Shown here: positions 7,740 through 54,890 of the stretch, piece after piece
Numbering within the stretch: position 1 is the stretch's first letter
Layout: each line of letters begins with the position of its first letter
Origin: an uncultured Clostridia bacterium
Lineage (GTDB): Bacteria > Bacillota > Clostridia > TANB77 > CAG-508
DNA: 64,000 bases
Reading direction: 5' to 3'
NCBI GenBank assembly: GCA_947624195.1
Contig: CANQJH010000001.1
Coordinates: 49,233 to 113,232, forward strand
The notes under the pieces: model-generated
Database searches by the model: none
Told to the model about the DNA's origin: nothing
What the model saw: the letters and a program-made list of their open reading frames with translations, nothing else
Position numbers and translations under genes: made by a program

Positions 7740-7840
7740 ACCGTGGTAAGAGTGATGTGAGGAACATTGATAGATTTCCAGAATATTATTTTGAAAAAAT
7801 CTATAAGAAGTGGAAAGCTGATAGAATTTAAAAATAAACT
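7740..7840 (+). repeat. diverged copy of the 3' end of the 144-aa gene at 11297..11731
   Basis: About 95 bp homologous to 11635..11731, including the near-identical run encoding KKS(I/V)RSGKLIEFKNK. Confidence 0.6.
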
Positions 7841-7871: not shown

Positions 7872-7900
7872 ATGTCGTTAAGTAATGTACTTAACGACAT
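7872..7900 (+). terminator. palindromic hairpin followed by a T-rich run
   Basis: atgtcgttaagta-atg-tacttaacgacat followed by ttttatata; a related hairpin occurs at 9571..9598. Confidence 0.4.
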
Positions 7901-8033
7901 TTTATATACGTATTTTATACTAAAAAATAAACAAAATCAAGATATAAAAAAATTTTTTTATATAAATAAAATTTAAAATATAAAAAGTTCGCAAAGTGTT
8001 GATTTTAAAAGCTAATCTCCGAAAAATAAATTA

Positions 8034-8056
8034 TCATTAAGTACATTACTTAATGA
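8034..8056 (+). promoter_or_regulatory. perfect inverted repeat (10-bp arms, 3-bp spacer) 27 nt upstream of the start codon
   Basis: tcattaagta-cat-tacttaatga; the same arms recur at 9731..9753 upstream of the paralog. Confidence 0.5.
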
Positions 8057-8082: not shown

Positions 8083-9399
8083 ATGAAAAACAAAGGAATA
8101 ACACTAGTTGCGCTAGTAGTAACAATAGTAATTATGTTAATTTTGGCAGGGGTAACATTGAGATTAGCTTTAGGGGAAAATGGATTGTTTAATATATCAA
8201 AACAATCAGTTGAAAAGTATGAGGAATCAGTCCAAAACGAAGAAGAAGAATTAGATGAATTACTAGAAGAATTAAAGCATATAATGCCAGAAGAGGCAGG
8301 AAAAGAGGTAGAAGTACCAAAAGCAGAGAAAGATAAGTGGGATTTAACAAAAGTAACACCAACAGCAGACGGAAAAGGAAATACAATACCAGTACCAAAA
8401 AATTTTTATTATGTAGGAGGAGATAAAGACTCAGGATTTGTAATATCAAGTGTAAGTGGAGATGATCTAAACAATAGTAAAAAAGGTAATGAATTTGTAT
8501 GGGTACCAGTAAAAGTTATAAATGATATGGTAATGTGTAAGGAACATACAACAGCTACAATTACTTTTGATGGAGTAAATTTTTCTTGTGATGGAAATGG
8601 ACACCCACATACACCGAACAAAGAATACTTGGTAGGACAACTTTATACTCCGACTACGGATAATGGATTTACTGCAGGAATACCATATACAGAATATAAT
8701 GAAAACATAATAAGGGAACCAGGATTGACAACAGTGGATACAGATGAAAATTTATCTAATTTTTTACAGACTACATCAAATGAATTTTTACAGGAGTTAC
8801 AAGAAGAATTTTATAAAATGGCAAAAAGTGTAGCAAAATATGGAGGATTTTATATAGGCAGATATGAAACATCAGGTTTAAATGACGGCGAGGAACCAAA
8901 AGTACAATCGGGACTAGTACCAACGGGAAACATTAACTGGTATACAATCTACAAAAATAGTAAAAAAATAGCCCAAGAAGGTTCAAATGTAACAAGTAGT
9001 ATGATATGGGGAAGTCAATGGGACTATGTACTAAATTGGATGCAAGACATAGAAAATCCAACATTGACAGAAGAAAAGAAATATTACATTATGGACAGTA
9101 GAGGAATGGGTTGGTATTATGGAGAAACAGGAAACAATGAGCATAAAACAGGAATAGATTTGATAAAGGACGGAAAAGTAACCAATAAAGAAAAAAATAT
9201 TTATGATTTTGCAGGAAATTTTGAGGAATTAAATATGGCTTGCTCGGGCGGTACAGTACGTGCTTTACGTGGAGGATCTTATAAGCTGGAGGGAAATGTT
9301 CGTCCTGCTTGTAACCTTCGACTGGTAAGACCTGACGCTATATATGAGTGGGTTAGTAGTCGAGTTACACTTTGTATAAACTTGAATCCGGGGGAGTAA
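8083..9399 (+). CDS. pilin-like-anchored surface protein with a C-terminal FGE-sulfatase/C-type-lectin-like domain; candidate DGR target 1
   Basis: N-terminus KGITLVALVVTIVIMLILAGV resembles a type IV prepilin signal but lacks F+1 and E+5; a coiled-coil stalk follows. The C-terminal motifs IYDFAGNFEE, RGGSY and RLVR match the FGE-sulfatase fold. The 3' end is GC-rich and A-depleted. Confidence 0.8.
   Translation: MKNKGITLVALVVTIVIMLILAGVTLRLALGENGLFNISKQSVEKYEESVQNEEEELDELLEELKHIMPEEAGKEVEVPKAEKDKWDLTKVTPTADGKGNTIPVPKNFYYVGGDKDSGFVISSVSGDDLNNSKKGNEFVWVPVKVINDMVMCKEHTTATITFDGVNFSCDGNGHPHTPNKEYLVGQLYTPTTDNGFTAGIPYTEYNENIIREPGLTTVDTDENLSNFLQTTSNEFLQELQEEFYKMAKSVAKYGGFYIGRYETSGLNDGEEPKVQSGLVPTGNINWYTIYKNSKKIAQEGSNVTSSMIWGSQWDYVLNWMQDIENPTLTEEKKYYIMDSRGMGWYYGETGNNEHKTGIDLIKDGKVTNKEKNIYDFAGNFEELNMACSGGTVRALRGGSYKLEGNVRPACNLRLVRPDAIYEWVSSRVTLCINLNPGE
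9235..9396 (+). other. putative DGR variable-region-like patch in target 1
   Basis: Local GC far above the window background, depleted in A, with rare codons (TCG, GGC, CGT, CGA); coincides with the last beta-strands of the lectin-like fold. Confidence 0.45.
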
Positions 9400-9426
9400 C
9401 TTGATAGGTTCAAACTTATTTTTAAA

Positions 9427-9452
9427 CCAGAGCAGTTAGAGAGCTGCTCTGG
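9427..9452 (+). other. GC-stem hairpin just downstream of target 1, with no U-tract
   Basis: ccagagcagttagagagctgctctgg followed by gttgttgatg; positioned like a DGR VR-flanking hairpin rather than an intrinsic terminator. Confidence 0.45.
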
Positions 9453-9566
9453 TTGTTGATGATACAGTCAAATGAAAAAATATAAACGGAATAAAAGAAT
9501 TTCAATTATAGGAGAAATATTAGATAAAATAAATAATATTATAAAAAAATAAATTAAAAATTGTTA

Positions 9567-9783
9567 AATTGTCGTTAAGTAATATACTTGACGATATATT
9601 CATATATGTATTTTATACTAAAAAATAAACAAAATCAACACTTTATATAATTTTCTTTTTGAAATAAAATTGAAAATATAAAAAATCTGTAAAGTGTTGA
9701 TCCTCAAGACTAATCTCCACAAATAAATTATCATTAAGTATATTACTTAATGATAAAAATAAAAAATTGGAGAGGTGCGGAAG
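9567..9783 (+). repeat. duplicated 5' regulatory region (copy 2), including the operator-like palindrome at 9731..9753
   Basis: Homologous to 7870..8082; contains tcattaagta-tat-tacttaatga. Confidence 0.7.
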
Positions 9784-11076
9784 ATGATGAAAAACAAAGG
9801 AATAACACTAGTTGCTTTAGTAGTAACAATAATAATTATGTTAATTTTAGCAGGGGTGACATTAAATATTGCTTTAGGTGATAACGGATTAATAAAGCAA
9901 ACAAAAAAAGCAGCGGATTTAGCAAAAGAGTCTATGAAAAATGAGGAAGAAGATGTAGGAAAACTAGTTAATCAATTAGATGAAGTAATAAAAGAAAGTT
10001 TACCAAGTACAGTAAAAGAAGCAATAGAAACAGAAGAAATATTTACAGTTAATAAGAAAATAACGGATGAAAGTGGAAAAACAATGGTAGTACCAAAAGG
10101 CTTTAAAGTAATAGAAGAAACTAATATAGATAGTGGCGTAGTCATAGCAGACGGAGAAGGTAATGAGTTTGTATGGGTACCATGTGAAGATGGTGAATAT
10201 AAAAAACATGTATATGATGTAAAACAAATAGATGATGCTACTACTACTTTAGCTGATGGAGTAAACAAAGAAAAAGGTTGGACTACATTACAGTATAGAA
10301 AATATAGTGATTGGAAAGATGAAGTAGATGAAGTGGCAAATATAAAAAGTGTGGAAGATAATAAAGGATTTTATATAGCGAGATATGAAGCGGGTGTACC
10401 CAAGAATGCAGATTTTTATGTAGAGGCTTCTGCTGAAGGAGTTAAAAATAAAAATTATCCACAAAGTAAAAATGATATAAGTGATAATATAAAGCCAGTA
10501 AGTAAAAAAGGAGTGCAAACATGGAATTTAATAAGTCAAATAAATGCTAAAACCGTATCCGAAAGAATGTATAGCGGAGAATCTTACGGAGTAAGAAGTC
10601 AACTAGTAGATGGAACTGCATGGGACACTGCCGTAACATGGATGTCAAAAGAGTACGTAGGAATAGAAAAAAATAGTACAAATTATGGAAATTATAATAA
10701 CACACCTACAAAAGAAATAACAGGCTTATATGCAGCACATACTTATAGTGATGGTTGGCAATTAGCAACAAGTTATGGTTATGGAAAAAAAAGTATAGGT
10801 GGAAGAAGTAGTTTGAGAACTGAAATAGCGACAGGCTTAGTAAATGAGTTTAAACTAAAAAACATATATGATATGGCTGGAAATATGTATGAATGGACTA
10901 CAGAATATGGATATCATGATGGTGGAACCAGCAGTACAAAATATGTTGTTCAGCGAGGAGGATGTCCTACTGACGATGGTGGTGTCCACCCAGTTTCTGT
11001 TCGTAGTGGCTATTGGGCAGAAACGGTAGAAAATAATCCTGTATTTGGTTTTCGAGTTGTACTTTATGTAAAATAA
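9784..11076 (+). CDS. pilin-like-anchored protein with a C-terminal FGE-sulfatase-like domain; candidate DGR target 2, paralog of target 1
   Basis: Same N-terminal KNKGITLVALVVTIIIMLILAGV anchor and stalk. C-terminus carries IYDMAGNMYEWT, QRGGC and GFRVV. The ORF track starts at a GTG at 9775; the ATG at 9784 has a better RBS. Confidence 0.8.
   Translation: MMKNKGITLVALVVTIIIMLILAGVTLNIALGDNGLIKQTKKAADLAKESMKNEEEDVGKLVNQLDEVIKESLPSTVKEAIETEEIFTVNKKITDESGKTMVVPKGFKVIEETNIDSGVVIADGEGNEFVWVPCEDGEYKKHVYDVKQIDDATTTLADGVNKEKGWTTLQYRKYSDWKDEVDEVANIKSVEDNKGFYIARYEAGVPKNADFYVEASAEGVKNKNYPQSKNDISDNIKPVSKKGVQTWNLISQINAKTVSERMYSGESYGVRSQLVDGTAWDTAVTWMSKEYVGIEKNSTNYGNYNNTPTKEITGLYAAHTYSDGWQLATSYGYGKKSIGGRSSLRTEIATGLVNEFKLKNIYDMAGNMYEWTTEYGYHDGGTSSTKYVVQRGGCPTDDGGVHPVSVRSGYWAETVENNPVFGFRVVLYVK
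10920..11073 (+). other. possible variable-region-like 3' segment of target 2 (weaker composition signal)
   Basis: Moderately GC-enriched relative to the gene body; homologous in position to the patch in target 1 but with a codon indel relative to it. Confidence 0.3.
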
Positions 11077-11296: not shown

Positions 11297-11731
11297 TTGG
11301 AGAAATTAAACTTAGCAACAATAAATAAGGCTCATAGTAAAAACATAAAAATAGGTGAATTAAATGAGCAAGTTATAGAATTATTAAAATTAGATTTAAA
11401 ACCACAGAATATTAATATTTGGTCATCCAGATTAAAAGAACATTGTGAAAAACACAAAGATGAATACTCTAGTGTAAATGCATATAATCAAGCAATAAGA
11501 TTTATTCCGGAGATAATTAAAAATCCAGATTATGTTGGATTACATAGAAATGGTAATATTCAGTATGTAAAAAAGTTAGAAGACATATCTTTAGTCGGAA
11601 TACAAATTTTAAAAGGTAGTGGGCACTTATTATTTAGAACAATTTTCCCAATTTCAGAAACAAAGTTGAAAAAATCTGTAAGAAGTGGAAAGCTAATAGA
11701 ATTTAAAAATAAACAAAGAGAAAATACATAA
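11297..11731 (+). CDS. hypothetical protein, 144 aa
   Basis: Intact ORF whose 3' end is duplicated at 7740..7840; no family recognised with confidence. Confidence 0.5.
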   Translation: MEKLNLATINKAHSKNIKIGELNEQVIELLKLDLKPQNINIWSSRLKEHCEKHKDEYSSVNAYNQAIRFIPEIIKNPDYVGLHRNGNIQYVKKLEDISLVGIQILKGSGHLLFRTIFPISETKLKKSVRSGKLIEFKNKQRENT

Positions 11732-12148
11732 AGTATTTCCTCTTTTTAATTTTGGTTAATAGGTAGGACGGCGTACCCTACATCTACTTATAAGACCATC
11801 TCTGGCGTGATAGCTGCCACTTTCTATCCTCAATTAACCTACTATGAGTGTACTCATAATTTTAAAAATTATGCATTACCTATATGTAAATATATTACAA
11901 AAATCTCAATAAGTCAATAGGTTTTAATTATTTTTTACAATTGTTGAACTAATTATAACTATATTTTAACATATTATTATAATTATGTCAACGGCTAAGA
12001 TATAGAATTTTTTCGTTTGTGCCTTTTTTTACTTTTTAATTGTAAAAAAATTTACATACTTTATTTTAATATTCGCCTCACTTTAAATTATTTTTTGTTT
12101 TTTTGCTCCTTTCTATATTTTACCAGTACAAGATGACACAATCTCCCT

Positions 12149-12571
12149 GTGATAACTTTACATAATTTTTATGACTTTTTTATGCAACTAAACTCCTTAT
12201 ATTTTTTTCCTTATTTTTTATATGTCCTTTTGCCATTGTTAACATCACTACAAACGTTAAACTTAGCATTAAATTCATTTTCTTCAATCCTCGTATGGGA
12301 AAATAATTGGGATAATATTCAACCATTTTTCAAATATGGACCACAGACAAGAAAAATAATGTATACAACAAATGCGATTGAGAGTCTAAATAATTGTTAT
12401 AAAAGATTAAATAAAGGAAGACGAGTATTTCCAACGATTCAAGCACTAGAAAAAAGCATGTATTTATCAACTCAAATGATTATTGAAAAATGGACTAGCA
12501 GATATGCGAACTGGGGCGTAACATTGGCAGAATTAAATATTTATTTTCCAGATAGGGTAAATATAGATTAA
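12149..12571 (+). pseudogene. IS256-family transposase, C-terminal fragment only
   Basis: Residues IMYTTNAIESLNNCYKRLNKGRRVFPT...KWTSRYANWGVTLAELNIYFPDRV match the conserved C-terminus of IS256/mutator-type transposases. The catalytic N-terminal two-thirds are absent and the upstream part of the ORF is nonsense. Confidence 0.75.
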
Positions 12572-14939: not shown

Positions 14940-15272
14940 CTATTCATCTTTTAAATATCGTTCCCAATCCATAAAAGCATGTCCTATTCTTAAAATAAAA
15001 ACTATATTATTTTCTTCGTCAATAATATAAAATATTATATAATTTCTTACATTGACTTTTCTAATATTTTTATGTCCTGTTAATTTTTCATCAAGTATAG
15101 GCATACTTCCAGCGACATCTTCCAATTTTTTAAATTCTTGTTTAAATAAAATTTTATATTTATCCGCAATAATATCTTCACACAAATCATTTCTAAGATA
15201 TGAAATAATGTTTTCTAAGTCTTGCTCTGCTGTTTCTGAAATTTTTATTATATATTTTTTCATACTATTCAC
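14940..15272 (-). CDS. type II toxin, RelE/ParE family
   Basis: About 110 aa with the ParE-like C-terminus NYIIFYIIDEENNIVFILRIGH; immediately downstream of a small antitoxin-like ORF. Confidence 0.7.
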   Translation of the reverse strand: MNSMKKYIIKISETAEQDLENIISYLRNDLCEDIIADKYKILFKQEFKKLEDVAGSMPILDEKLTGHKNIRKVNVRNYIIFYIIDEENNIVFILRIGHAFMDWERYLKDE

Positions 15273-20388: not shown

Positions 20389-20598
20389 AAAAATTATTAT
20401 TAATTATATAGTTTAATAATAAATTTTTTCACTTAAAGTATATGGTATTAAAATATTTTTGTCAATACTATGTTGATAAAAATTTTTTTATTTTTTTCAT
20501 CAAAATAATTCAAAAAGCCTGATATAACTGTGAAACAAGTATTTTTAAATTATTATTAAACTATATATTTAATAATAAATAAAAAATAGGAGGAAACC
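20389..20598 (+). repeat. 5' regulatory region of target gene 3, duplicated (about 95% identity) upstream of target gene 4
   Basis: Near-identical to 24787..24994 down to the RBS (ataggaggaaaccatg). Confidence 0.8.
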
Positions 20599-21807
20599 AT
20601 GGAAAAACAAAAGAAACAAGGAATTTTGAACATTAAAAACAGTAAAGGTATAACGTTAGTAGCATTAGTAATAACCATAATAATAATGCTAATATTAGCA
20701 GGGGTGGCATTAAGACTAGCATTAGGAGAAAATGGTTTATTTAAAATGTCAGAGAAAGCAGTAGAGAAGTATAAAGAGGAAGCAGCAAAGGAAGAAAATA
20801 CACTAGGGAATATGGAAAAACAACTAAAGTACATGATAGAGGGCTATGTGCCAGACAGAAGTATGCTAAAAGTAGGAGATGAAGTAAATTATACGCCCCA
20901 AACGGCAAAAACGACATATACTTTAGAAGGTAACAAAAGTGGATACGGAGACTATACAAGTAGTAAACCTAAAACAATGACAAAAGCAACAGACCAAGAA
21001 ATAAGTCAAGAGAATTATACATGGAAGATAATGGACATAAATAGTAAAACAGGAGAAGTAAAAATAATGGGCGTACCAACAAGTAGTATGCCTACAGTAT
21101 ATTTCAAAGGAGCATTAGGATATAACAATGGAGTATATCTTTTGGATGATATATGTAAAACATTATATAGTAATAGTGACTTGGGAGTAACAGCAAGAAG
21201 TATAGATATAGAAGATATTGAAAGTAAAATGAATGACAAAGGAAGAGATGCAAAAAATGATTATATATCAGAAAATCAAACAACCAAAGAATTTAACGGA
21301 AGTAATGCATATTACCCTAACATATATAAATATCAACAAGATTCAAATATAGATGGAACAGAAAAGACAGAAGGAATAAGTGAAAGTGATGATGGAACAA
21401 AAACAGAAGCAGGAATACCAATTGAGCATGCAACAAATGTAGAAGGATATACACAAGCAGAAACAAGTATCACAGTAAAAGGAACATACTATTATGCAAC
21501 GCAAAATGCAGGATATTTTGATGATGAAGACTTTTACAATTTAATGTTTAAAACAGGTACATATTATTGGCTTGCTTCGCGTTATTCTGGTTGCTTCTCG
21601 AGTAGCTCTTGTGCTGACTTTGGGCTTCGCATTGTGGCCAGCTCTAGCATCAACGGTTACAAAATGTTCAATTCGGATGGCGATTACGACGACGACAATA
21701 TTCGCGTTTGCCCGGTAGTTTCTCTAGGGGCTAATATCCAAATCACAAGAGATGGAAACGCAGGAGCATGGGACTTATCGAAGGACCCAAATTTTGGTGG
21801 ATTTTAA
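20599..21807 (+). CDS. pilin-like-anchored protein with a C-terminal DUF1566/Fib_succ-major-like (C-type-lectin superfamily) domain; candidate DGR target 3
   Basis: N-terminus KGITLVALVITIIIMLILAGV plus an ALGENGLFKMSEKAVEKYKEE stalk shared with the other three targets. The C-terminus has YYW...NIRVCPVVSL resembling the YWSS...VRCVR motif of DUF1566. Confidence 0.75.
   Translation: MEKQKKQGILNIKNSKGITLVALVITIIIMLILAGVALRLALGENGLFKMSEKAVEKYKEEAAKEENTLGNMEKQLKYMIEGYVPDRSMLKVGDEVNYTPQTAKTTYTLEGNKSGYGDYTSSKPKTMTKATDQEISQENYTWKIMDINSKTGEVKIMGVPTSSMPTVYFKGALGYNNGVYLLDDICKTLYSNSDLGVTARSIDIEDIESKMNDKGRDAKNDYISENQTTKEFNGSNAYYPNIYKYQQDSNIDGTEKTEGISESDDGTKTEAGIPIEHATNVEGYTQAETSITVKGTYYYATQNAGYFDDEDFYNLMFKTGTYYWLASRYSGCFSSSSCADFGLRIVASSSINGYKMFNSDGDYDDDNIRVCPVVSLGANIQITRDGNAGAWDLSKDPNFGGF
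21561..21735 (+). other. putative DGR variable-region-like patch in target 3 (strongest composition signal)
   Basis: The first ~90 nt contain roughly 10% A by hand count, against roughly 35-40% A in flanking coding sequence. Dense TGC/TCG/CGC/GGC codons; the composition falls back to normal about 80 nt before the stop. Confidence 0.5.
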
Positions 21808-21810
21808 ATG

Positions 21811-21840
21811 CGCCTTGGAGGCCTTAGGTCTCCAGGCGAC
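21811..21840 (+). other. GC-stem hairpin 3 nt after the target 3 stop, with no U-tract
   Basis: gcgccttggag-gccttaggt-ctccaggcgac followed by taaagagg. Confidence 0.45.
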
Positions 21841-24786: not shown

Positions 24787-24994
24787 AAAATTATTATTAA
24801 TTATATAGATTAATAATAAATTTTTTCACTTAAAGTATATGGTATTAAAATATTTTTGTCAATACTATGTTGATAAAAATTTTTTTATTTTTTTCATCAA
24901 AATAATTCAAAAAGCCTGATATAACTGTGAAACAAGTATTTTTAAATTATTATTAAACTATATATTTAATAATAAATAAAAATAGGAGGAAACC
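24787..24994 (+). repeat. duplicated 5' regulatory region (copy 2) upstream of target gene 4
   Basis: See 20389..20598. Confidence 0.8.
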
Positions 24995-25981
24995 ATGAAA
25001 AAACAAAAGAAAGAAAACAAGTTCAACTTAAAAGAACAAGGTATAACGCTAGTTGCGTTAGTAGTAACAATAATAATACTTTTAATCTTAGCAGGAGTAA
25101 CAATCAACATAGCTTTAAGGGAAAATGGATTATTTAAAATGTCAGAGAAAGTAGTAGAGAAGTATAAGGAAGAAGCAGGAAAGGAAGAGGAAACATTACA
25201 GGATTTAGAACAACACATAAAAAATAATACACCCGTTGAACCAGCAGAAGAACCTAAAGAGCCTATAGGAAAAACACCGTATGTAGGATATTATGCAAGT
25301 AGAGATGGAATAACAGTAGATGGAATAATATATGCAGACCAAGCAGTAGGAAATACAAACGGAACAAAATGGAGTGATGGTGATGGAACCTACACAATAC
25401 CAATAAAAGAAGAAGGCTTAAAGGAATACTATATAAGTCAAGAATCATACACAACAGAAGCCTTTGGACCAAAACCTGTGTTAACACCAATAAATGATGA
25501 AGGAGAAGACAGATTTTATATCATGTCACTTGAAGATTTTGGAGGAAAAGGACAAAGTTATTATTGGTATTATAGCGCATTTAAAAATATGAGTGATTAT
25601 AGTACAGCAACATCAACAAAATTTGGAACTGGAAAAACCAATACAGAGAACATGGTAGCAAAGTGGACGGCGGGAGAAAGTGAAGATGGTTATGGAAAGC
25701 AAGATGGGGGAAGCACATATAAAGATATATGGGGATACTTTTCAAGAAAAGAAATACCAGAAGGATGGTTTTTACCATCAAGAGGAGAATTAGCAGCATT
25801 TATGCAAGAATTAGGGATAAACAGCAGTAATTATTCTAATCAATTTCAATTATCTAGTTATTACTGGTCGTCGTCGCAGTTCAATTTTAACTACGCATGG
25901 CTCGCGTACATGCTTATTGGTTGTATGAGCAGCTACACTGTGAATTACGGCCGCTGCGTGCGCCTGAGTGCGACTTTCTGA
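24995..25981 (+). CDS. pilin-like-anchored protein with a C-terminal DUF1566-like domain; candidate DGR target 4, immediately upstream of the RT
   Basis: N-terminus QGITLVALVVTIIILLILAGV and a conserved stalk. The C-terminus SSYYWSSSQFNFNYAWLAYMLIGCMSSYTVNYGRCVRLSATF fits the YWSS...AW...R.VRCVR signature. Confidence 0.75.
   Translation: MKKQKKENKFNLKEQGITLVALVVTIIILLILAGVTINIALRENGLFKMSEKVVEKYKEEAGKEEETLQDLEQHIKNNTPVEPAEEPKEPIGKTPYVGYYASRDGITVDGIIYADQAVGNTNGTKWSDGDGTYTIPIKEEGLKEYYISQESYTTEAFGPKPVLTPINDEGEDRFYIMSLEDFGGKGQSYYWYYSAFKNMSDYSTATSTKFGTGKTNTENMVAKWTAGESEDGYGKQDGGSTYKDIWGYFSRKEIPEGWFLPSRGELAAFMQELGINSSNYSNQFQLSSYYWSSSQFNFNYAWLAYMLIGCMSSYTVNYGRCVRLSATF
25855..25978 (+). other. putative DGR variable-region-like patch at the extreme 3' end of target 4
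   Basis: Roughly 18% A by hand count over ~120 nt. Contains TCG-TCG-TCG, GCG, CGC, GGC and CTG codons that are rare elsewhere in this AT-rich genome. Confidence 0.5.
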
Positions 25982-26004
25982 TTTTGTAAAAAATCAGAAA
26001 AATA

Positions 26005-26075
26005 TAGGCCTACATTATGTAAATAATGTAGGCAATTCAAACCGAGATATTCTTCGTAAGAAGAAACTCGGTTTG
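26005..26075 (+). other. two consecutive stem-loops between target 4 and the RT, neither followed by a U-tract
   Basis: taggcctacatt...aatgtaggc (26005..26033) and caaaccgag...ctcggtttg (26038..26075), the latter with a nested ttcttcgtaagaagaa palindrome. Confidence 0.5.
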
Positions 26076-26178
26076 AATTAAAAGGATTAGATTGATAAAA
26101 GGAAATTTATTATAGAAAATGCGAGTTTCATTATATTAAGTTTAAATACTCTTCTTATGAAGAGTATTTTTATAAGAG

Positions 26179-27321
26179 GTGTATATGGATAATAAGCTAA
26201 CTTTTGAAGATTTATATGAAGCATATAATTTATGTTTAAAAAATAAAAAAAATAAAATAGGAACATATAATTTTGTAAACTATAATTTATGCAAAAATTT
26301 AATGGAGCTACTAGAAGAATTAAATAATAAACAATACATTCAAAGACAATCTAATTGTTATGTAGTTAAGGATCCAGCATTGAGAGAAATATATGCAGCT
26401 CAATTTTTTGACAGAGTAGTACAGCATTTTTATATGAAAGAAGTAGAACATATTTTAGAAGAACAATTAGTTGACGGTTGTTGTTCATGTAGAAAAAATA
26501 AAGGTAATGATTATGCTCTTCAATTATTAAAGAAATATCTTAAAGTAGTATCGAATAATGGGAAAAAAGACTGTTACTTTCTTAAAATTGATTTATCTGG
26601 ATATTTTATGTCAATAGATAGAAAGCAAATAAGTCAAAAGTTCTTAAATCTTATAAGCAATAAATATAAAGGACCATATAAAGAATTACTCATTTATTTA
26701 ACTCCAATTATATTTGAAAATAATCCGGCAGTGAACTGTAAGTATAAATGTAATGAAAAAGTAAGAAACCTAGTACCTGAAAGAAGAAAAATGAATCCGA
26801 AATCCGATTATGGAATGGCTATAGGTAATTTGACTTCTCAGGCAGGTAGCAATTTTAATCTCAGTGAATTTGATAATTACGTTGTATATAAACTAAATCT
26901 AGTTAATTATATTAGATATGTTGACGATATGGTGATAATTTCAAATAATAAACAAGAGTTACAAAATGCAATGCCGTATATAATAAATAAACTTAAAGAA
27001 ACTAATCAATCTATAAGTGAAAAGAAAACTAAAATAGATACTGCGTATCATGGAGTACCATTTTTGGGAAAAGTTTCTTTTCCATACGGTTATCAAAAAG
27101 CTAAAAAATCGACAATAGTGAGAGTATATAAAAGGGGTAGAGAAATTAGATATAAGGACACAGACAATTTATTAGCAAAAACAAATTCGCAAATTGGATT
27201 GCTAAAAGGATATAACTGCAGAAAACTAATATTAAATTATTCTAAAATTATACAAAACAAAACGGGAGACGAAATTTATTTGAATGAAGAAATGTTAAAA
27301 TTTTGTAAAAAGAATAAATAA
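26179..27321 (+). CDS. diversity-generating retroelement reverse transcriptase
   Basis: RT motifs ALREIYAAQFFDRVVQH (motifs 1/2), LKIDLSGYFMSIDRK (motif 3), AIGNLTSQ (the DGR-specific GxxxSQ motif 4) and YVDDMVII (motif 5). The likely start is the ATG at 26185 with an aagagg RBS; the track begins at a GTG at 26179. Confidence 0.85.
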   Translation: MYMDNKLTFEDLYEAYNLCLKNKKNKIGTYNFVNYNLCKNLMELLEELNNKQYIQRQSNCYVVKDPALREIYAAQFFDRVVQHFYMKEVEHILEEQLVDGCCSCRKNKGNDYALQLLKKYLKVVSNNGKKDCYFLKIDLSGYFMSIDRKQISQKFLNLISNKYKGPYKELLIYLTPIIFENNPAVNCKYKCNEKVRNLVPERRKMNPKSDYGMAIGNLTSQAGSNFNLSEFDNYVVYKLNLVNYIRYVDDMVIISNNKQELQNAMPYIINKLKETNQSISEKKTKIDTAYHGVPFLGKVSFPYGYQKAKKSTIVRVYKRGREIRYKDTDNLLAKTNSQIGLLKGYNCRKLILNYSKIIQNKTGDEIYLNEEMLKFCKKNK

Positions 27322-52424: not shown

Positions 52425-53615
52425 TTACTCCTCACCATTTACTAATCTTAACGTATCTCTAGCAATAACTAATTCTTCATTTGTTGGAATAACCCATACT
52501 TGTATTTTAGAATCATCGGTGGAAATTTTGATTTCTTCACCTTTTACAGAGTTTCTTTGATTATCAATTTTTACTCCCATATATTCTAAGTATTTGCAAA
52601 TATCTGCTCTAATGCCTACCTGGTTTTCTCCTACTCCAGCAGTAAATGTGATAACGTCAACTCCTTGCATAGCCATAGCATATTTTGCTATAAATCCAGC
52701 AACCGAGTATTTGTATTGTTTTAATGCTAAAATAGCTCTTTCATTTCCTTCTTGTGCAGCTGCTTCAATATCTCTTACATCCCTAGAAACTCCACTTATT
52801 CCATATAAGCCAGATTCTTGGTTTAGTATATTGTCCATTTCCTTTGATGTTAGATTTTCTTTTTCCATTAAAAAGGTTACGACTGAAGGATCTAAATCAC
52901 CTGAACGAGCACACATTGGTATACCAGCCACTGGGCTTAGTCCCATAGATGTTTCTACAGATTTTCCATTTTGAATTGCACAAATGCTTGCACCTTGTCC
53001 TAGATGGCAGTTAATTACTTTTAAATCTTTTCTATTTAAAATCTCTGATATTCTATTTGAAACATAATAATGTGAAGTTCCGTGAAATCCATATTTTCTT
53101 ATTTTGTATTGATCTTTATATTTATATGGAATTGGATAGGTATATCTTTCTTCAGGGATAGTCTGGTGGAAAGCTGTATCAAATACGGCAACCATAGGCT
53201 TTCCTGGCATAATTTCTTGACATGCTCTAATTCCTATAATAGCACAAGGATTATGTACTGGTGCTAGGCTTGAAATATCATCAATTGATTTTATAACATC
53301 TTCATTAATTAATACAGAACCTTTGAAAGTACTTCCTCCATGAACTATTCTGTGACCAATTGCGTTAATTTCATTTACATTAGATATAGACGGATATTCT
53401 TTGTTTAATAATTGTTCTATAACAAAATCTAATGCTTCCTTATGATTATTTACAGGATGTTCTAAAACATATTTTTCTCCGTTAATTTTATGTGTTAAAA
53501 AAGATTTCTCTCCTATTCTTTCATAGGTGCCTTTTGAAATTACCTCTTCATTTTCCATATTTATTAATTGATATTTTAAAGAAGAGCTTCCGCAATTTAT
53601 AACTAAAATTTTCAT
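52425..53615 (-). CDS. ackA: acetate kinase
   Basis: MKILVINCGSSSLKYQL N-terminus and conserved ASKHA-fold motifs. Confidence 0.9.
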   Translation of the reverse strand: MKILVINCGSSSLKYQLINMENEEVISKGTYERIGEKSFLTHKINGEKYVLEHPVNNHKEALDFVIEQLLNKEYPSISNVNEINAIGHRIVHGGSTFKGSVLINEDVIKSIDDISSLAPVHNPCAIIGIRACQEIMPGKPMVAVFDTAFHQTIPEERYTYPIPYKYKDQYKIRKYGFHGTSHYYVSNRISEILNRKDLKVINCHLGQGASICAIQNGKSVETSMGLSPVAGIPMCARSGDLDPSVVTFLMEKENLTSKEMDNILNQESGLYGISGVSRDVRDIEAAAQEGNERAILALKQYKYSVAGFIAKYAMAMQGVDVITFTAGVGENQVGIRADICKYLEYMGVKIDNQRNSVKGEEIKISTDDSKIQVWVIPTNEELVIARDTLRLVNGEE

Positions 53616-53696: not shown

Positions 53697-54890
53697 TTAT
53701 GAGCATAGATGTTTTGTTTCATATGCAATAGCAAGTTCCTCATTTGTTGGTACAACATATACATGCACTTTTGAATCATCAGCTGAAATTTTGGCTTCAA
53801 CTGCAAAAGCATCTTTATTTGCTTTGCTATCTAGTTTAACACCCATAAATGATAGGTAGTTACAAATAGCTTCTCTTGACTGAGGGCCCCTCTCTCCTAC
53901 TCCGGCAGTAAATGATATAACATCTACACCGTTCATTGCCACAGCACATCTAGCTATATAACATGCAATTAGATAATGGTAATTATCAAGAGCAAGCTGT
54001 GCCATTTCATTTCCTTCGGATTGAGCTTTTTCAATATCTCTATTGTCAGACGAAACACCTGAAATACCATATAAGCCAGATTTTTTGTTTAATATTGTTT
54101 CCATTTGTTCTGGAGTTAAATTTTCTTTTCTCATAATATATGTAACAACTGATGGATCTAAATCTCCTGAACGAGAACCCATTGGAATACCTGCAACAGG
54201 AGTAAGTCCCATTGATGTTTCAACTGATTTTCCATTTTGTATAGCGCAAATGCTTGCACCCTGTCCAATATGGCAGTTTATAATTTTTAAGTCTTCAACT
54301 GGTTTTCCCTCAATTTCTGCCACTCTTTTTGAAACATACATATGTGATGTGCCATGGAAACCATATTTTCTTATTCCATATTTTTCATAATATTCATATG
54401 GAATTGGATAAATAAATCTTTCTTTAGGTATTGTTTGATGAAATGCTGTATCAAAAACAACTACATTAGGCTTACCTGGAATGTCGCGTTCGCAAGCTTC
54501 TATTACCATAGCAGCTGCTGCATTATGTAGTGGAGCTAATTCAGCACATCTCTTTATTTCTGCTAAAACACTGTCATCTACTAAAACAGATTTGTTAAAT
54601 TTTTCTCCTCCATGTACTATTCTATGACCAATGCTGTCGATTTCATCTAGTGATTTAATTACTCCATATTCACTATGTAATAATTGGCCTAAAACAAATT
54701 TTAATGCTTGTTCATGATTTTGAACTGGATTCTCAATTTTTATTTTTTCTCCATTTACCTTATGTGTTACAAATGAATTGTCACTTCCTATCCTTTCGTA
54801 ATTTCCTGATGCAAGGGTATTTGCAGTATCCATATCTATTAATTGATATTTCAATGATGAACTTCCTGCATTTAAAACTAAAATTTTCAT
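53697..54890 (-). CDS. acetate kinase paralog
   Basis: MKILVLNAGSSSLKYQLIDM; full-length paralog directly upstream of ackA, with an acetate-kinase-type rather than butyrate-kinase-type N-terminus. Confidence 0.85.
   Translation of the reverse strand: MKILVLNAGSSSLKYQLIDMDTANTLASGNYERIGSDNSFVTHKVNGEKIKIENPVQNHEQALKFVLGQLLHSEYGVIKSLDEIDSIGHRIVHGGEKFNKSVLVDDSVLAEIKRCAELAPLHNAAAAMVIEACERDIPGKPNVVVFDTAFHQTIPKERFIYPIPYEYYEKYGIRKYGFHGTSHMYVSKRVAEIEGKPVEDLKIINCHIGQGASICAIQNGKSVETSMGLTPVAGIPMGSRSGDLDPSVVTYIMRKENLTPEQMETILNKKSGLYGISGVSSDNRDIEKAQSEGNEMAQLALDNYHYLIACYIARCAVAMNGVDVISFTAGVGERGPQSREAICNYLSFMGVKLDSKANKDAFAVEAKISADDSKVHVYVVPTNEELAIAYETKHLCS

What the first reader, a model, noticed from the sequence alone, without database searches (positions are those of the whole stretch)
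8083..11076. Tandem paralogs combining a pilin-like anchor, a coiled-coil stalk and an FGE-sulfatase (C-type-lectin-fold) C-terminus: candidate DGR targets
Both proteins end in the motif set of the FGE-sulfatase domain (YDxAGNxxEW, RGGS/RGGC, GFR/RLVR), the C-type-lectin fold most often used by DGR variable proteins. Both begin with the same 25-residue hydrophobic pilin-like segment. The lectin-like ends are GC-rich and A-poor. The first is followed by a non-terminator hairpin (9427..9452). Two copies in tandem with duplicated promoters suggests an expanding family of displayed binding modules.
Basis: partly seen in the sequence, partly recalled or inferred. Interest (0 to 1): 0.85.

Follow-up and report, generated by a model that had tools for sequence, protein, structure and literature searches.

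The report
Orphan DGR-type surface lectin paralogs
Two neighbouring genes encode membrane-anchored, lectin-like surface proteins from a family whose tips are rewritten by a mutagenic retroelement (DGR) in related gut Clostridia, but this genome stretch has no template for them, so they are probably frozen copies.

Summary

The DGR idea holds for the family. In five related MAG loci a P2-type gene is followed by avd-RT-TR, and the TR matches the gene's last 128-141 nt with adenine-specific mismatches. The same TR matches paralogs on other contigs. In three human-gut samples the VR differs at 22 columns, 21 of them TR adenines.

It is not shown for these two genes. No template repeat lies within about 83 kb. 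The only RT here (26185-27321) belongs to a different DGR type, sits beside another pilin-anchored lectin gene (24995-25981), and has lost avd and TR through a ~790-bp deletion. P1/P2 show only partly eroded DGR codon signatures.

Best reading: fossil or orphan DGR variable-protein paralogs. A remote active template cannot be excluded. This is a new member of a known kind, of moderate interest. All four such genes carry inverton-like inverted repeats upstream.

The parts
8083..9399 (+). P1, 438 aa. Pilin-like N-terminal anchor (aa 1-26), acidic helical linker, FGE-type C-type-lectin domain. It belongs to the '[GS]SRxTLY' subfamily.
   Evidence: ORF; paralogy to P2; 13,491 cluster representatives at E<=1e-3, best 51% identity; subfamily alignment A2
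9268..9396 (+). P1 VR-equivalent segment (RGGSY...SSRVTL...). It is A-poor, with NNY codon bias 0.55 against 0.34 in the gene body.
9425..9454 (+). Hairpin downstream of P1: 13-bp stem, 4-nt loop, no T-run after it. Its role is unknown.
   Evidence: verified relatives do not carry a comparable conserved hairpin
9784..11076 (+). P2, 430 aa (433 aa from GTG 9775). Same architecture as P1; belongs to the 'GFRVVLY' subfamily.
10954..11073 (+). P2 VR-equivalent segment (RGGC...GFRVVLYVK). It is colinear with verified VRs: 28 residues between RGG and GFR, with the G/P/R/G scaffold kept.
7875..8056 (.). Inverted-repeat pair upstream of P1 (arms 7875-7905 and 8026-8056, 87% complementary) flanking 120 nt. 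Each arm is also internally palindromic.
9569..9756 (.). Paralogous inverted-repeat pair upstream of P2 (arms 9569-9596 and 9729-9756, 86% complementary) flanking 132 nt.
20599..21807 (+). P3, 402 aa. Same pilin-like N-terminus with a different lectin-like C-terminal region that carries a strong VR-like codon signature (NNY 0.80). A GC-rich hairpin lies at 21811-21838.
24995..25981 (+). P4, 328 aa. Same pilin-like N-terminus with an Lcl_C/DUF1566-like C-terminus. Relative of the verified DGR targets in L012, L010 and L094; VR-equivalent about 25860-25978.
26084..26165 (+). Deletion scar. These 82 nt stand where relatives carry ~790 bp holding avd and the template repeat.
   Evidence: blastn of the window against L094
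26185..27321 (+). DGR-type reverse transcriptase, 378 aa, with IGNLTSQ and YVDD motifs. The ORF is intact, but no avd or TR is present.
   Evidence: homologs at 66-74% identity sit in TR/VR-bearing cassettes
11297..11731 (+). PBECR3 nuclease-like gene directly downstream of P2. Its last 49 bp (11666-11714) are repeated at 7791-7839, upstream of P1, at 96% identity.

Best explanation
P1 and P2 are paralogous cell-surface binding proteins. Each has an N-terminal pilin-type hydrophobic segment that anchors it in the membrane, or possibly feeds it to a prepilin pathway. A charged helical linker follows. An FGE-sulfatase-type C-type-lectin domain then faces outward, and its last ~40 codons form the ligand-contacting surface.

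This protein family is a DGR variable-protein family. In related uncultured Clostridia, an avd-RT-TR cassette next to one family member rewrites that 3' segment by adenine-specific mutagenic retrohoming. The same template also matches paralogs elsewhere in the genome.

In this genome the two copies are most likely no longer being rewritten. They appear to be frozen descendants of diversified variable regions, each fixed on one binding specificity and now drifting towards the host's A-rich codon usage.

Shown: the fold, family membership, DGR targeting in cis and trans in relatives, absence of a template in ~83 kb, and loss of avd and TR at the window's only RT. Inferred: surface exposure, ligand binding, past diversification of these two copies, and present inactivity.

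For: Family is a DGR target family:
- An RT lies directly 3' of a P2-type gene in L028, L039, L063, L065 and L076.
- In each, a TR just after the RT matches the last 128-141 nt of the gene with 13-24 A-mismatches and at most 6 others.
- An avd ORF lies between target and RT, and bAvd is called by Pfam in L099 and L102.
- The same TR matches paralogs on other contigs of the same MAG: L048 and L033 for L065, L025 for L028.
- In L102-L104, three samples with an identical RT, 22 VR columns vary and 21 of them are A in the TR.

No template here: blastn, ungapped and gapped A-tolerant scans of the whole window are negative for P1-P4. The ~10 kb beyond each end is also negative, with no RT. The same scan recovers the TR/VR pairs in L010 and L012.

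RT remnant: relative to L094, the window lacks the ~790 bp holding avd and TR.

Erosion:
- NNY codon fraction between RGG and GFR is 0.83-0.93 in five TR-linked VRs, with NNA in 0-3 of 30-31 codons.
- It is 0.65 in P2 (NNA 9 of 31) and 0.55 in P1 (NNA 7 of 29), against 0.34-0.39 in the gene bodies.
- P2's 3' scaffold GGTTTTCGAGTTGTACT differs at 5 synonymous, AT-ward positions from the conserved TR/VR end GGGTTCCGTGTCGTGCT.
- P2 lacks the post-stop GTAGCACTGA motif seen in cis targets.
- P1 has lost the near-invariant Trp of the EW(T) motif.
- The P1 and P2 3' ends share no DNA similarity, so one TR cannot serve both.
Against: Remote DGR targets more than 100 kb from the RT are documented (PMC5758913). 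They also occur in this very family, so absence of a TR in ~83 kb does not prove absence in the genome.

The window's RT ORF is intact and 72-74% identical to working homologs, which is odd for a dead element.

The erosion argument is weak. One TR-matching remote copy (L048) also lacks the post-stop motif, and TR-matching L062 differs from the scaffold consensus at 4 positions.

All available contigs of this organism are the same strain: no differences anywhere in P1/P2 and only 5 mismatches over 21 kb, all near 12.1 kb. Variation between strains therefore could not be examined. The 90% clusters of P1 and P2 have a single member each.
Confidence: 0.6

Rival explanations
1. P2, and less likely P1, is an active remote target of a DGR located outside the ~83 kb examined, with its own template repeat.
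For: Trans targets on other contigs exist in relatives. Only 5 of 83 family gene copies have a TR within 10 kb, yet many TR-less copies keep the GC-rich TR-like 3' end. The A-poor, NNY-biased 3' ends are significant (p 0.005 for P2, 0.02 for P1). Type-ii avd-RT-TR cassettes are very common in these Clostridia: 3,306 RT homologs at E<=1e-20.
Against: No TR in ~83 kb. None of six TRs from relatives fits P1 or P2. P2 has A at five four-fold-degenerate scaffold sites (CGA GGA GGA ... CGA ... GTA), whereas all observed TRs avoid A in the scaffold codons. P1 has a degenerate core motif.
Confidence: 0.22
2. Ordinary, never-diversified surface lectin paralogs. The A-poor 3' ends would simply reflect the amino-acid make-up (Gly, Arg, Val, Cys, Pro, Phe) of the conserved C-terminal strands.
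For: The C-terminal motifs RGG and GFR need G/C-rich codons. Most family copies have no TR nearby. P0103 is identical in at least 24 contigs from many samples.
Against: P2 is colinear with verified VRs residue for residue: same 28-residue spacing and same G/P/R/G scaffold. Third-position NNY excess is a codon-level signal, not an amino-acid-level one. Close relatives are hypervariable exactly between RGG and GFR while the flanks are conserved.
Confidence: 0.13
3. Catalytic FGE/EgtB/PvdO-type enzymes, as the database name 'SUMF1/EgtB/PvdO family nonheme iron enzyme' on a relative would suggest.
For: One relative carries that name (P0100). PvdO, EgtB and FGE are among the structural hits.
Against: The best structural match is a DGR variable protein. 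The N-terminal anchor with no cleavable enzyme-type signal suggests surface display. The region that holds the catalytic residues in FGE is the hypervariable segment here. Catalytic residues were not aligned explicitly.
Confidence: 0.03

Closest known systems
TvpA and its paralogs, Treponema denticola DGR (FGE-type CLec1 variable proteins; category 'b' of Wu et al. 2018, PMC5758913)
   Different: TvpA is a lipoprotein (from memory), whereas these proteins carry a pilin-like N-terminal anchor and a helical linker. The host is uncultured gut Clostridia. For P1 and P2 themselves no TR was found.
TaqVP, Thermus aquaticus DGR variable protein (5vf4)
   Different: Only 15% sequence identity, and a different N-terminal region.
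Membrane-anchored cellular DGR targets described by Roux et al. 2021 (PMC8144416)
   Same: An N-terminal transmembrane segment or signal peptide plus a C-terminal CLec VR is the typical layout reported for cellular targets.
   Different: That survey could not detect remote targets. It makes no mention of 'pilin' or 'pilus' (0 occurrences), so the pilin-type N-terminus shared by several lectin subfamilies here is not described there.
Bacteroides DGRs that diversify type V pilus adhesins (bioRxiv 10.1101/2024.11.15.621889)
   Same: DGR-diversified adhesive proteins linked to a pilus-type display system in gut bacteria (abstract).
   Different: A different pilus class and phylum. Here any pilus link rests only on a sub-threshold N-terminal motif.
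Type IV pilins and modular minor pilins (class III signal peptide, PF07963/TIGR02532)
   Same: K-G-[IF]-T-L-[IV]-x-L-V-V-x-I-x-I-x-x-I-L-A-G pattern. Weak hits to N_methyl, geopilin and MshA.
   Different: Position +5 is Ala, not the Glu needed for filament assembly. Scores are below Pfam's cutoff. In the AF2 model the helix breaks at the conserved GxNG, with low confidence there. No pilus genes lie within ~83 kb.

Membership tests
DGR variable protein (target gene) | A variable region with a cognate template repeat that differs from it essentially only at TR adenines | tested here: not met
   No TR for P1 or P2 in the window or ~10 kb beyond each end. The same scan finds the TR/VR pairs in L010, L012, L028, L039, L063, L065 and L076. 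The rest of the genome was not available.
DGR variable protein (target gene) | A DGR-type RT with its accessory gene (avd) in the same genome | tested here: inconclusive
   A DGR-type RT lies at 26185-27321, 15 kb away, but avd and TR are deleted. It belongs to the cassette type that targets P4-like proteins, not P2-like ones.
DGR variable protein (target gene) | C-type-lectin fold carrying the variable residues at the C-terminus | tested here: met
DGR variable protein (target gene) | Homology to proteins whose VR is demonstrably diversified | tested here: met
   The P2 family includes five cis targets, trans targets and the L102-L104 target, where 21 of 22 between-sample variable columns are TR adenines.
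DGR variable protein (target gene) | Adenine-site-restricted polymorphism in P1/P2 among strains or reads | not testable with these tools
   All contigs carrying P1/P2 are the same strain, with zero differences in the genes. The 90% clusters have a single member each. No read data were available.
FGE-sulfatase domain (PF03781) | Score at or above Pfam's gathering cutoff (23.3 bits) | tested here: not met
   P2 scores 17.6 bits (E 0.003) and P1 has no hit. 33 of 36 aligned relatives hit at E<=1e-3, and fold-level membership is met.
FGE-sulfatase domain (PF03781) | Catalytic residues of FGE or EgtB-type enzymes | not tested
   No explicit residue mapping was done. The equivalent region is hypervariable in the family.
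Type IV pilin-like protein (class III signal peptide) | Gly at -1, hydrophobic residue at +1, Glu at +5, then a ~20-residue hydrophobic helix | tested here: not met
   KG|ITLVALVV...: Gly at -1 and the hydrophobic helix are present, but +5 is Ala in P1-P4 and in the family consensus. PF07963 scores 16-17 bits against a cutoff of 21.2. No TIGR02532 hit.
Type IV pilin-like protein (class III signal peptide) | Prepilin peptidase and pilus assembly genes in the genome | not testable with these tools
   None among the Pfam-annotated genes of the ~83 kb seen. The rest of the genome is unavailable.
Invertible promoter (inverton) | Inverted repeats flanking a short promoter-bearing segment directly upstream of a gene | tested here: met
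   28-32-nt arms flank 120-132 nt upstream of P1-P4. The best promoter match inside the P3 and P4 segments is TTGACA-17-TATACT, 11 of 12, on the minus strand. Perfect 22-nt IR pairs occur upstream of 8 of 50 homologs against 0 of 38 control windows.
Invertible promoter (inverton) | Both orientations observed in a population | tested here: not met
   Only one orientation was seen in all contigs compared. The P1/P2 arms are themselves palindromic, so paired operator sites are an equal alternative.

The most novel reading that the evidence does not exclude
The four genes (P1-P4) form a repertoire of prepilin-like adhesins lacking Glu5, and so possibly placed at a filament tip. Their lectin heads were generated by DGRs. 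Each would be switched on and off by its own invertible promoter, all four caught in the OFF orientation here. This would combine hypermutation with phase variation, and the organism would keep a stock of frozen specificities after losing the templates.
Probability: 0.12. Interest if true: 0.7.

Novelty: new member of a known kind. Interest (0 to 1): 0.4.

Why it matters
FGE-type C-type-lectin proteins are already the largest known class of DGR targets, and membrane-anchored cellular targets are the rule, so the core finding extends known biology into uncultured gut Clostridia. Three points add something.

First, the same pilin-type N-terminal module is attached to at least three different lectin subfamilies, each linked to DGRs. 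This hints at a common display route.

Second, this genome shows what happens after a DGR decays. The RT is kept, avd and TR are deleted, and several former variable regions sit at different stages of erosion. Such graded erosion could help date DGR loss and flag orphan targets from codon signatures alone.

Third, inverted-repeat pairs in front of every copy suggest an extra layer of on/off control that could be tested by read mapping.

Tried and rejected
1. A TR inside the window. Tested by blastn at word size 7, an ungapped A-aware scan, gapped A-tolerant Smith-Waterman, a TR-anywhere-near-the-RT scan, relaxed scans and self-blastn. All were negative.

2. Retron or defence RT as the identity of the window's RT. 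PADLOC and NCBIfam hits were all far below family cutoffs. DGR identity was settled instead by homologs sitting in TR/VR cassettes.

3. Finding a type-ii DGR from the same genome. I searched homologs of the L039 RT and picked P0286, which comes from the same sequencing project. It lies in different samples and a different MAG, and its TR does not fit P1 or P2.

4. A degenerate 'TR-from-VR' pattern (A kept; C/G/T each allowed to be A) scanned over the metagenome collection. This was a design error. The best hit had 22 of 60 identities and 53 A. The scan was wasted.

5. Strain-level variation in P1/P2. Every other contig is the same strain.

6. Direct evidence of promoter inversion. No inverted copy was found among paralogs or samples.

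7. A conserved post-VR hairpin as a DGR recognition element. Cis targets share a short GTAGCACTGA motif rather than a hairpin like the one after P1, so that hairpin remains unexplained.

8. The literature holds nothing on the N-terminal sequence itself. The identity of PDB entry 8ub7 could not be confirmed from papers.
Full report
**Observation**

The window is a 30% GC Firmicute chromosome. Fatty-acid synthesis genes lie upstream of the finding and uvrB/uvrA downstream. The two ORFs are real: P1 is 8083-9399 (438 aa). P2 is 9775-11076 from a GTG, or 9784-11076 (430 aa) as called in public assemblies.

They are full-length paralogs (BLASTP E 5e-28, 29% identity), and their first 26 residues differ at one position. 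An 82-84% identical DNA repeat of ~340 bp covers each upstream region plus the start of each gene.

The 3' ends are the most A-poor stretches of both genes: A is 0.23-0.26 against 0.41-0.42 overall. The hairpin after P1 is at 9425-9454, with a 13-bp stem, a 4-nt loop, z -4.4 and no T-run.

Pfam support is below threshold. P2 scores 17.6 bits on PF03781 against a cutoff of 23.3, P1 scores nothing, and N_methyl gives E 0.005-0.009 in both.

**What the proteins are**

P2 has more than 2,500 relatives, most with precomputed PF03781 hits and often several per contig. Of 36 aligned members, 33 hit PF03781 at E<=1e-3. P1 belongs to a sister subfamily with 13,491 cluster representatives at E<=1e-3. 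That subfamily ends in [GS]SRxTLY instead of GFRVVLY.

An AlphaFold2 model of P2, built on the family alignment, is confident: pLDDT 86, pTM 0.83. It shows a hydrophobic helix (residues 8-29), a break at the conserved GxNG, a long low-confidence helix (36-72), then a globular domain from about residue 90.

- Foldseek ranks the Thermus aquaticus DGR variable protein TaqVP first, at E 8e-5.

So the FGE-type C-type-lectin fold is confirmed. It occupies about 340 residues, not just the last 150.

**The family is a DGR target family**

Fetching 80 loci of relatives from species-representative genomes returned only uncultured gut Clostridia MAGs, usually with several paralogs per genome.

In five loci (L028, L039, L063, L065, L076) a reverse transcriptase follows the family gene. 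In every one, a repeat just 3' of the RT matches the last 128-141 nt of the gene with 13-24 mismatches at repeat adenines and at most 6 others. A ~125-aa avd-like ORF lies between target and RT. Pfam calls it bAvd in further loci.

The TR of L065 also matches the 3' ends of paralogs on other contigs of the same MAG (L048, L033), and that of L028 matches L025. Remote targets therefore exist in this family, as in Treponema (PMC5758913).

L102-L104 come from three human-gut samples and carry an identical RT. The target there has the same KGITLIALV N-terminus. It differs between samples at 22 VR columns, and 21 of those are adenines in the TR.

**Status in this window**

No template exists for P1, P2, P3 or P4 in the 64 kb, by six different searches. 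None exists in the ~10 kb beyond each end either, and those flanks hold no RT. The scan is validated by its recovery of the TR/VR pairs in L010 and L012. None of six TRs from relatives fits P1 or P2. The two 3' ends are unrelated at DNA level, so one TR could not serve both.

The window does contain a DGR-type RT at 26185-27321.

- It carries the motifs IGNLTSQ and YVDD.
- Its best PDB match is the 328-aa 'Reverse transcriptase' 8ub7 at E 7e-18, which I believe from memory is the Bordetella phage bRT.
- Homologs at 66-74% identity sit in target-avd-TR-RT cassettes with clear TR/VR pairs.
- In L094-L096, 32 of 33 differences between L094 and L096 across target, avd, TR and RT lie in nt 907-1004 of the 1032-nt target gene.

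The gene 5' of the window's RT is P4 (24995-25981). It has a C-terminus like those targets and carries the same pilin-like N-terminus as P1 and P2. Compared with L094, however, the window lacks ~790 bp holding avd and TR, and only 82 nt (26084-26165) remain in their place. A fourth gene, P3 (20599-21807), has the same N-terminus and a third kind of lectin-like, VR-like region.

**Codon signatures**

Between RGG and GFR, TR-linked VRs use NNY codons at 0.83-0.93, with almost no NNA codons (0-3 of 30-31).

| Gene | NNY fraction | NNA codons | Gene-body NNY |
|---|---|---|---|
| TR-linked VRs | 0.83-0.93 | 0-3 of 30-31 | 0.38-0.46 |
| P3 | 0.80 | 2 of 51 | 0.34 |
| P4 | 0.64 | 1 of 39 | 0.33 |
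| P2 | 0.65 | 9 of 31 | 0.39 |
| P1 | 0.55 | 7 of 29 | 0.34 |

Gene bodies run at about 50% NNA.

P2 keeps the exact VR scaffold: 28 residues between RGG and GFR, with G, P, R and G in place. But its conserved 3' end differs at five synonymous, AT-ward positions from the GGGTTCCGTGTCGTGCT shared by TRs and linked VRs. It has A in scaffold codons where all TRs avoid A, and it lacks the post-stop GTAGCACTGA of cis targets. P1 has also lost the near-invariant Trp of the EW(T) motif.

I read this as a gradient. P3 and P4 were templated recently. P2 and then P1 have been drifting for longer. This is inference, and the discriminating features are not absolute: TR-matching L048 also lacks the post-stop motif, and TR-matching L062 has four scaffold differences.

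**Mechanism**

Shown:
- the fold;
- family membership;
- DGR rewriting of the homologous segment in cis and in trans in relatives;
- absence of a template in ~83 kb;
- deletion of avd and TR at the only local RT.

Inferred:
- the N-terminal segment anchors the protein with the lectin domain outside the cell;
- the last ~40 residues form the binding surface;
- P1 and P2 descend from diversified VRs and are now fixed.

An active remote template remains possible; I put this at about 0.2. All contigs of this organism are one strain, so polymorphism could not be examined.

**The pilin-like segment**

The pattern KG-ITL[IV]ALVVTI..LILAG closely resembles a class III signal peptide. It gives weak hits to N_methyl, geopilin and MshA. 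But +5 is Ala rather than Glu, scores are below cutoff, NCBIfam's pilin model does not hit, and no pilus genes lie in the ~83 kb seen. I therefore call it pilin-like, not a pilin.

**Upstream elements**

Each of the four genes is preceded by a pair of 28-32-nt inverted repeats flanking 120-132 nt and ending ~20-27 nt before the start codon.

Inside the P3 and P4 segments, the best sigma-70 match is on the minus strand, pointing away from the gene: TTGACA-17-TATACT, 11 of 12. P1 and P2 carry a weaker minus-strand match at the equivalent place. Perfect 22-nt IR pairs occur upstream of 8 of 50 homologs and in 0 of 38 control windows.

This is the layout of invertible promoters in the OFF state. 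No inverted copy was seen, and the P1/P2 arms are themselves palindromic, so paired operator sites are an equal alternative.

**Comparison and novelty**

FGE-type CLec proteins are the largest known class of DGR targets, with remote paralogous targets described for Treponema (PMC5758913). Membrane-anchored cellular targets are the rule in metagenomes (PMC8144416).

The finding is thus a new member of a known kind. Three new details are worth recording:
- a shared pilin-type N-terminal module on several lectin subfamilies;
- a decayed DGR that retains its RT;
- possible phase-variable promoters.

Interest is moderate, 0.4.

**Dead ends**

These are listed under Tried and rejected. They include a badly designed degenerate-pattern scan that matched only poly-A.

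Noticed in passing
window 26185-27321 (RT), 24995-25981 (P4), 26084-26165 (scar): A DGR-type reverse transcriptase sits next to a pilin-anchored Lcl_C/DUF1566-like target gene. The avd gene and template repeat found in relatives (L010, L012, L094) are missing through a ~790-bp deletion, yet the RT ORF is intact.
   Followed up: yes
window 20599-21807; hairpin 21811-21838: A third pilin-anchored protein (P3, 402 aa) has a GC-rich, NNY-biased (0.80) internal VR-like segment at ~21570-21720, followed 4 nt after the stop by a GC-rich hairpin. No TR is found in the window, and its lectin subfamily was not identified.
   Followed up: partly
window 7875-8056, 9569-9756, 20394-20578, 24791-24975: Inverted-repeat pairs (28-32 nt arms) flank 120-132 nt directly upstream of all four pilin-anchored genes. 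A near-consensus promoter inside the P3 and P4 segments faces away from the gene. This is inverton-like architecture in an apparent OFF state, but no inverted copy was observed.
   Followed up: partly
window 25975-26080: Three strong consecutive hairpins lie immediately after the P4 stop codon (-51 kcal/mol, z -11.3). The first two have GUAA tetraloops. They may be DGR target-recognition or terminator elements.
   Followed up: no
window 11297-11731; repeats 7791-7839 and 11666-11714: A PBECR3 (barnase/EndoU/colicin-like nuclease) gene follows P2. Its last 49 bp recur at 96% identity just upstream of P1, so the P1-P2-PBECR3 block is bracketed by direct repeats. This suggests a duplication or cassette history.
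   Followed up: no
window 12149-12571 and 12070-12128: A C-terminal fragment of a Mutator-family transposase. The only five differences between the window and other samples' contigs over 21 kb cluster just upstream of it.
   Followed up: no
window 14940-15272 (-): A ParE-family toxin gene, with a small upstream ORF that is probably its antitoxin, lies between uvrB and the next gene.
   Followed up: no
window 52425-53615 and 53697-54890 (-): Two tandem acetate kinase paralogs, 70% identical at DNA level.
   Followed up: no
loci L105-L108, L099: Many metagenome contigs carrying type-ii DGRs end inside or just before the target gene. This is consistent with assemblies breaking at hypervariable VRs, so surveys based on contigs will under-count such targets.
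   Followed up: no
loci L065 (10480, 12492-12509) and L010 (6457-6521): Target and RT genes appear frameshifted or split in some MAG assemblies. This may be assembly error at repeats or genuine decay.
   Followed up: no
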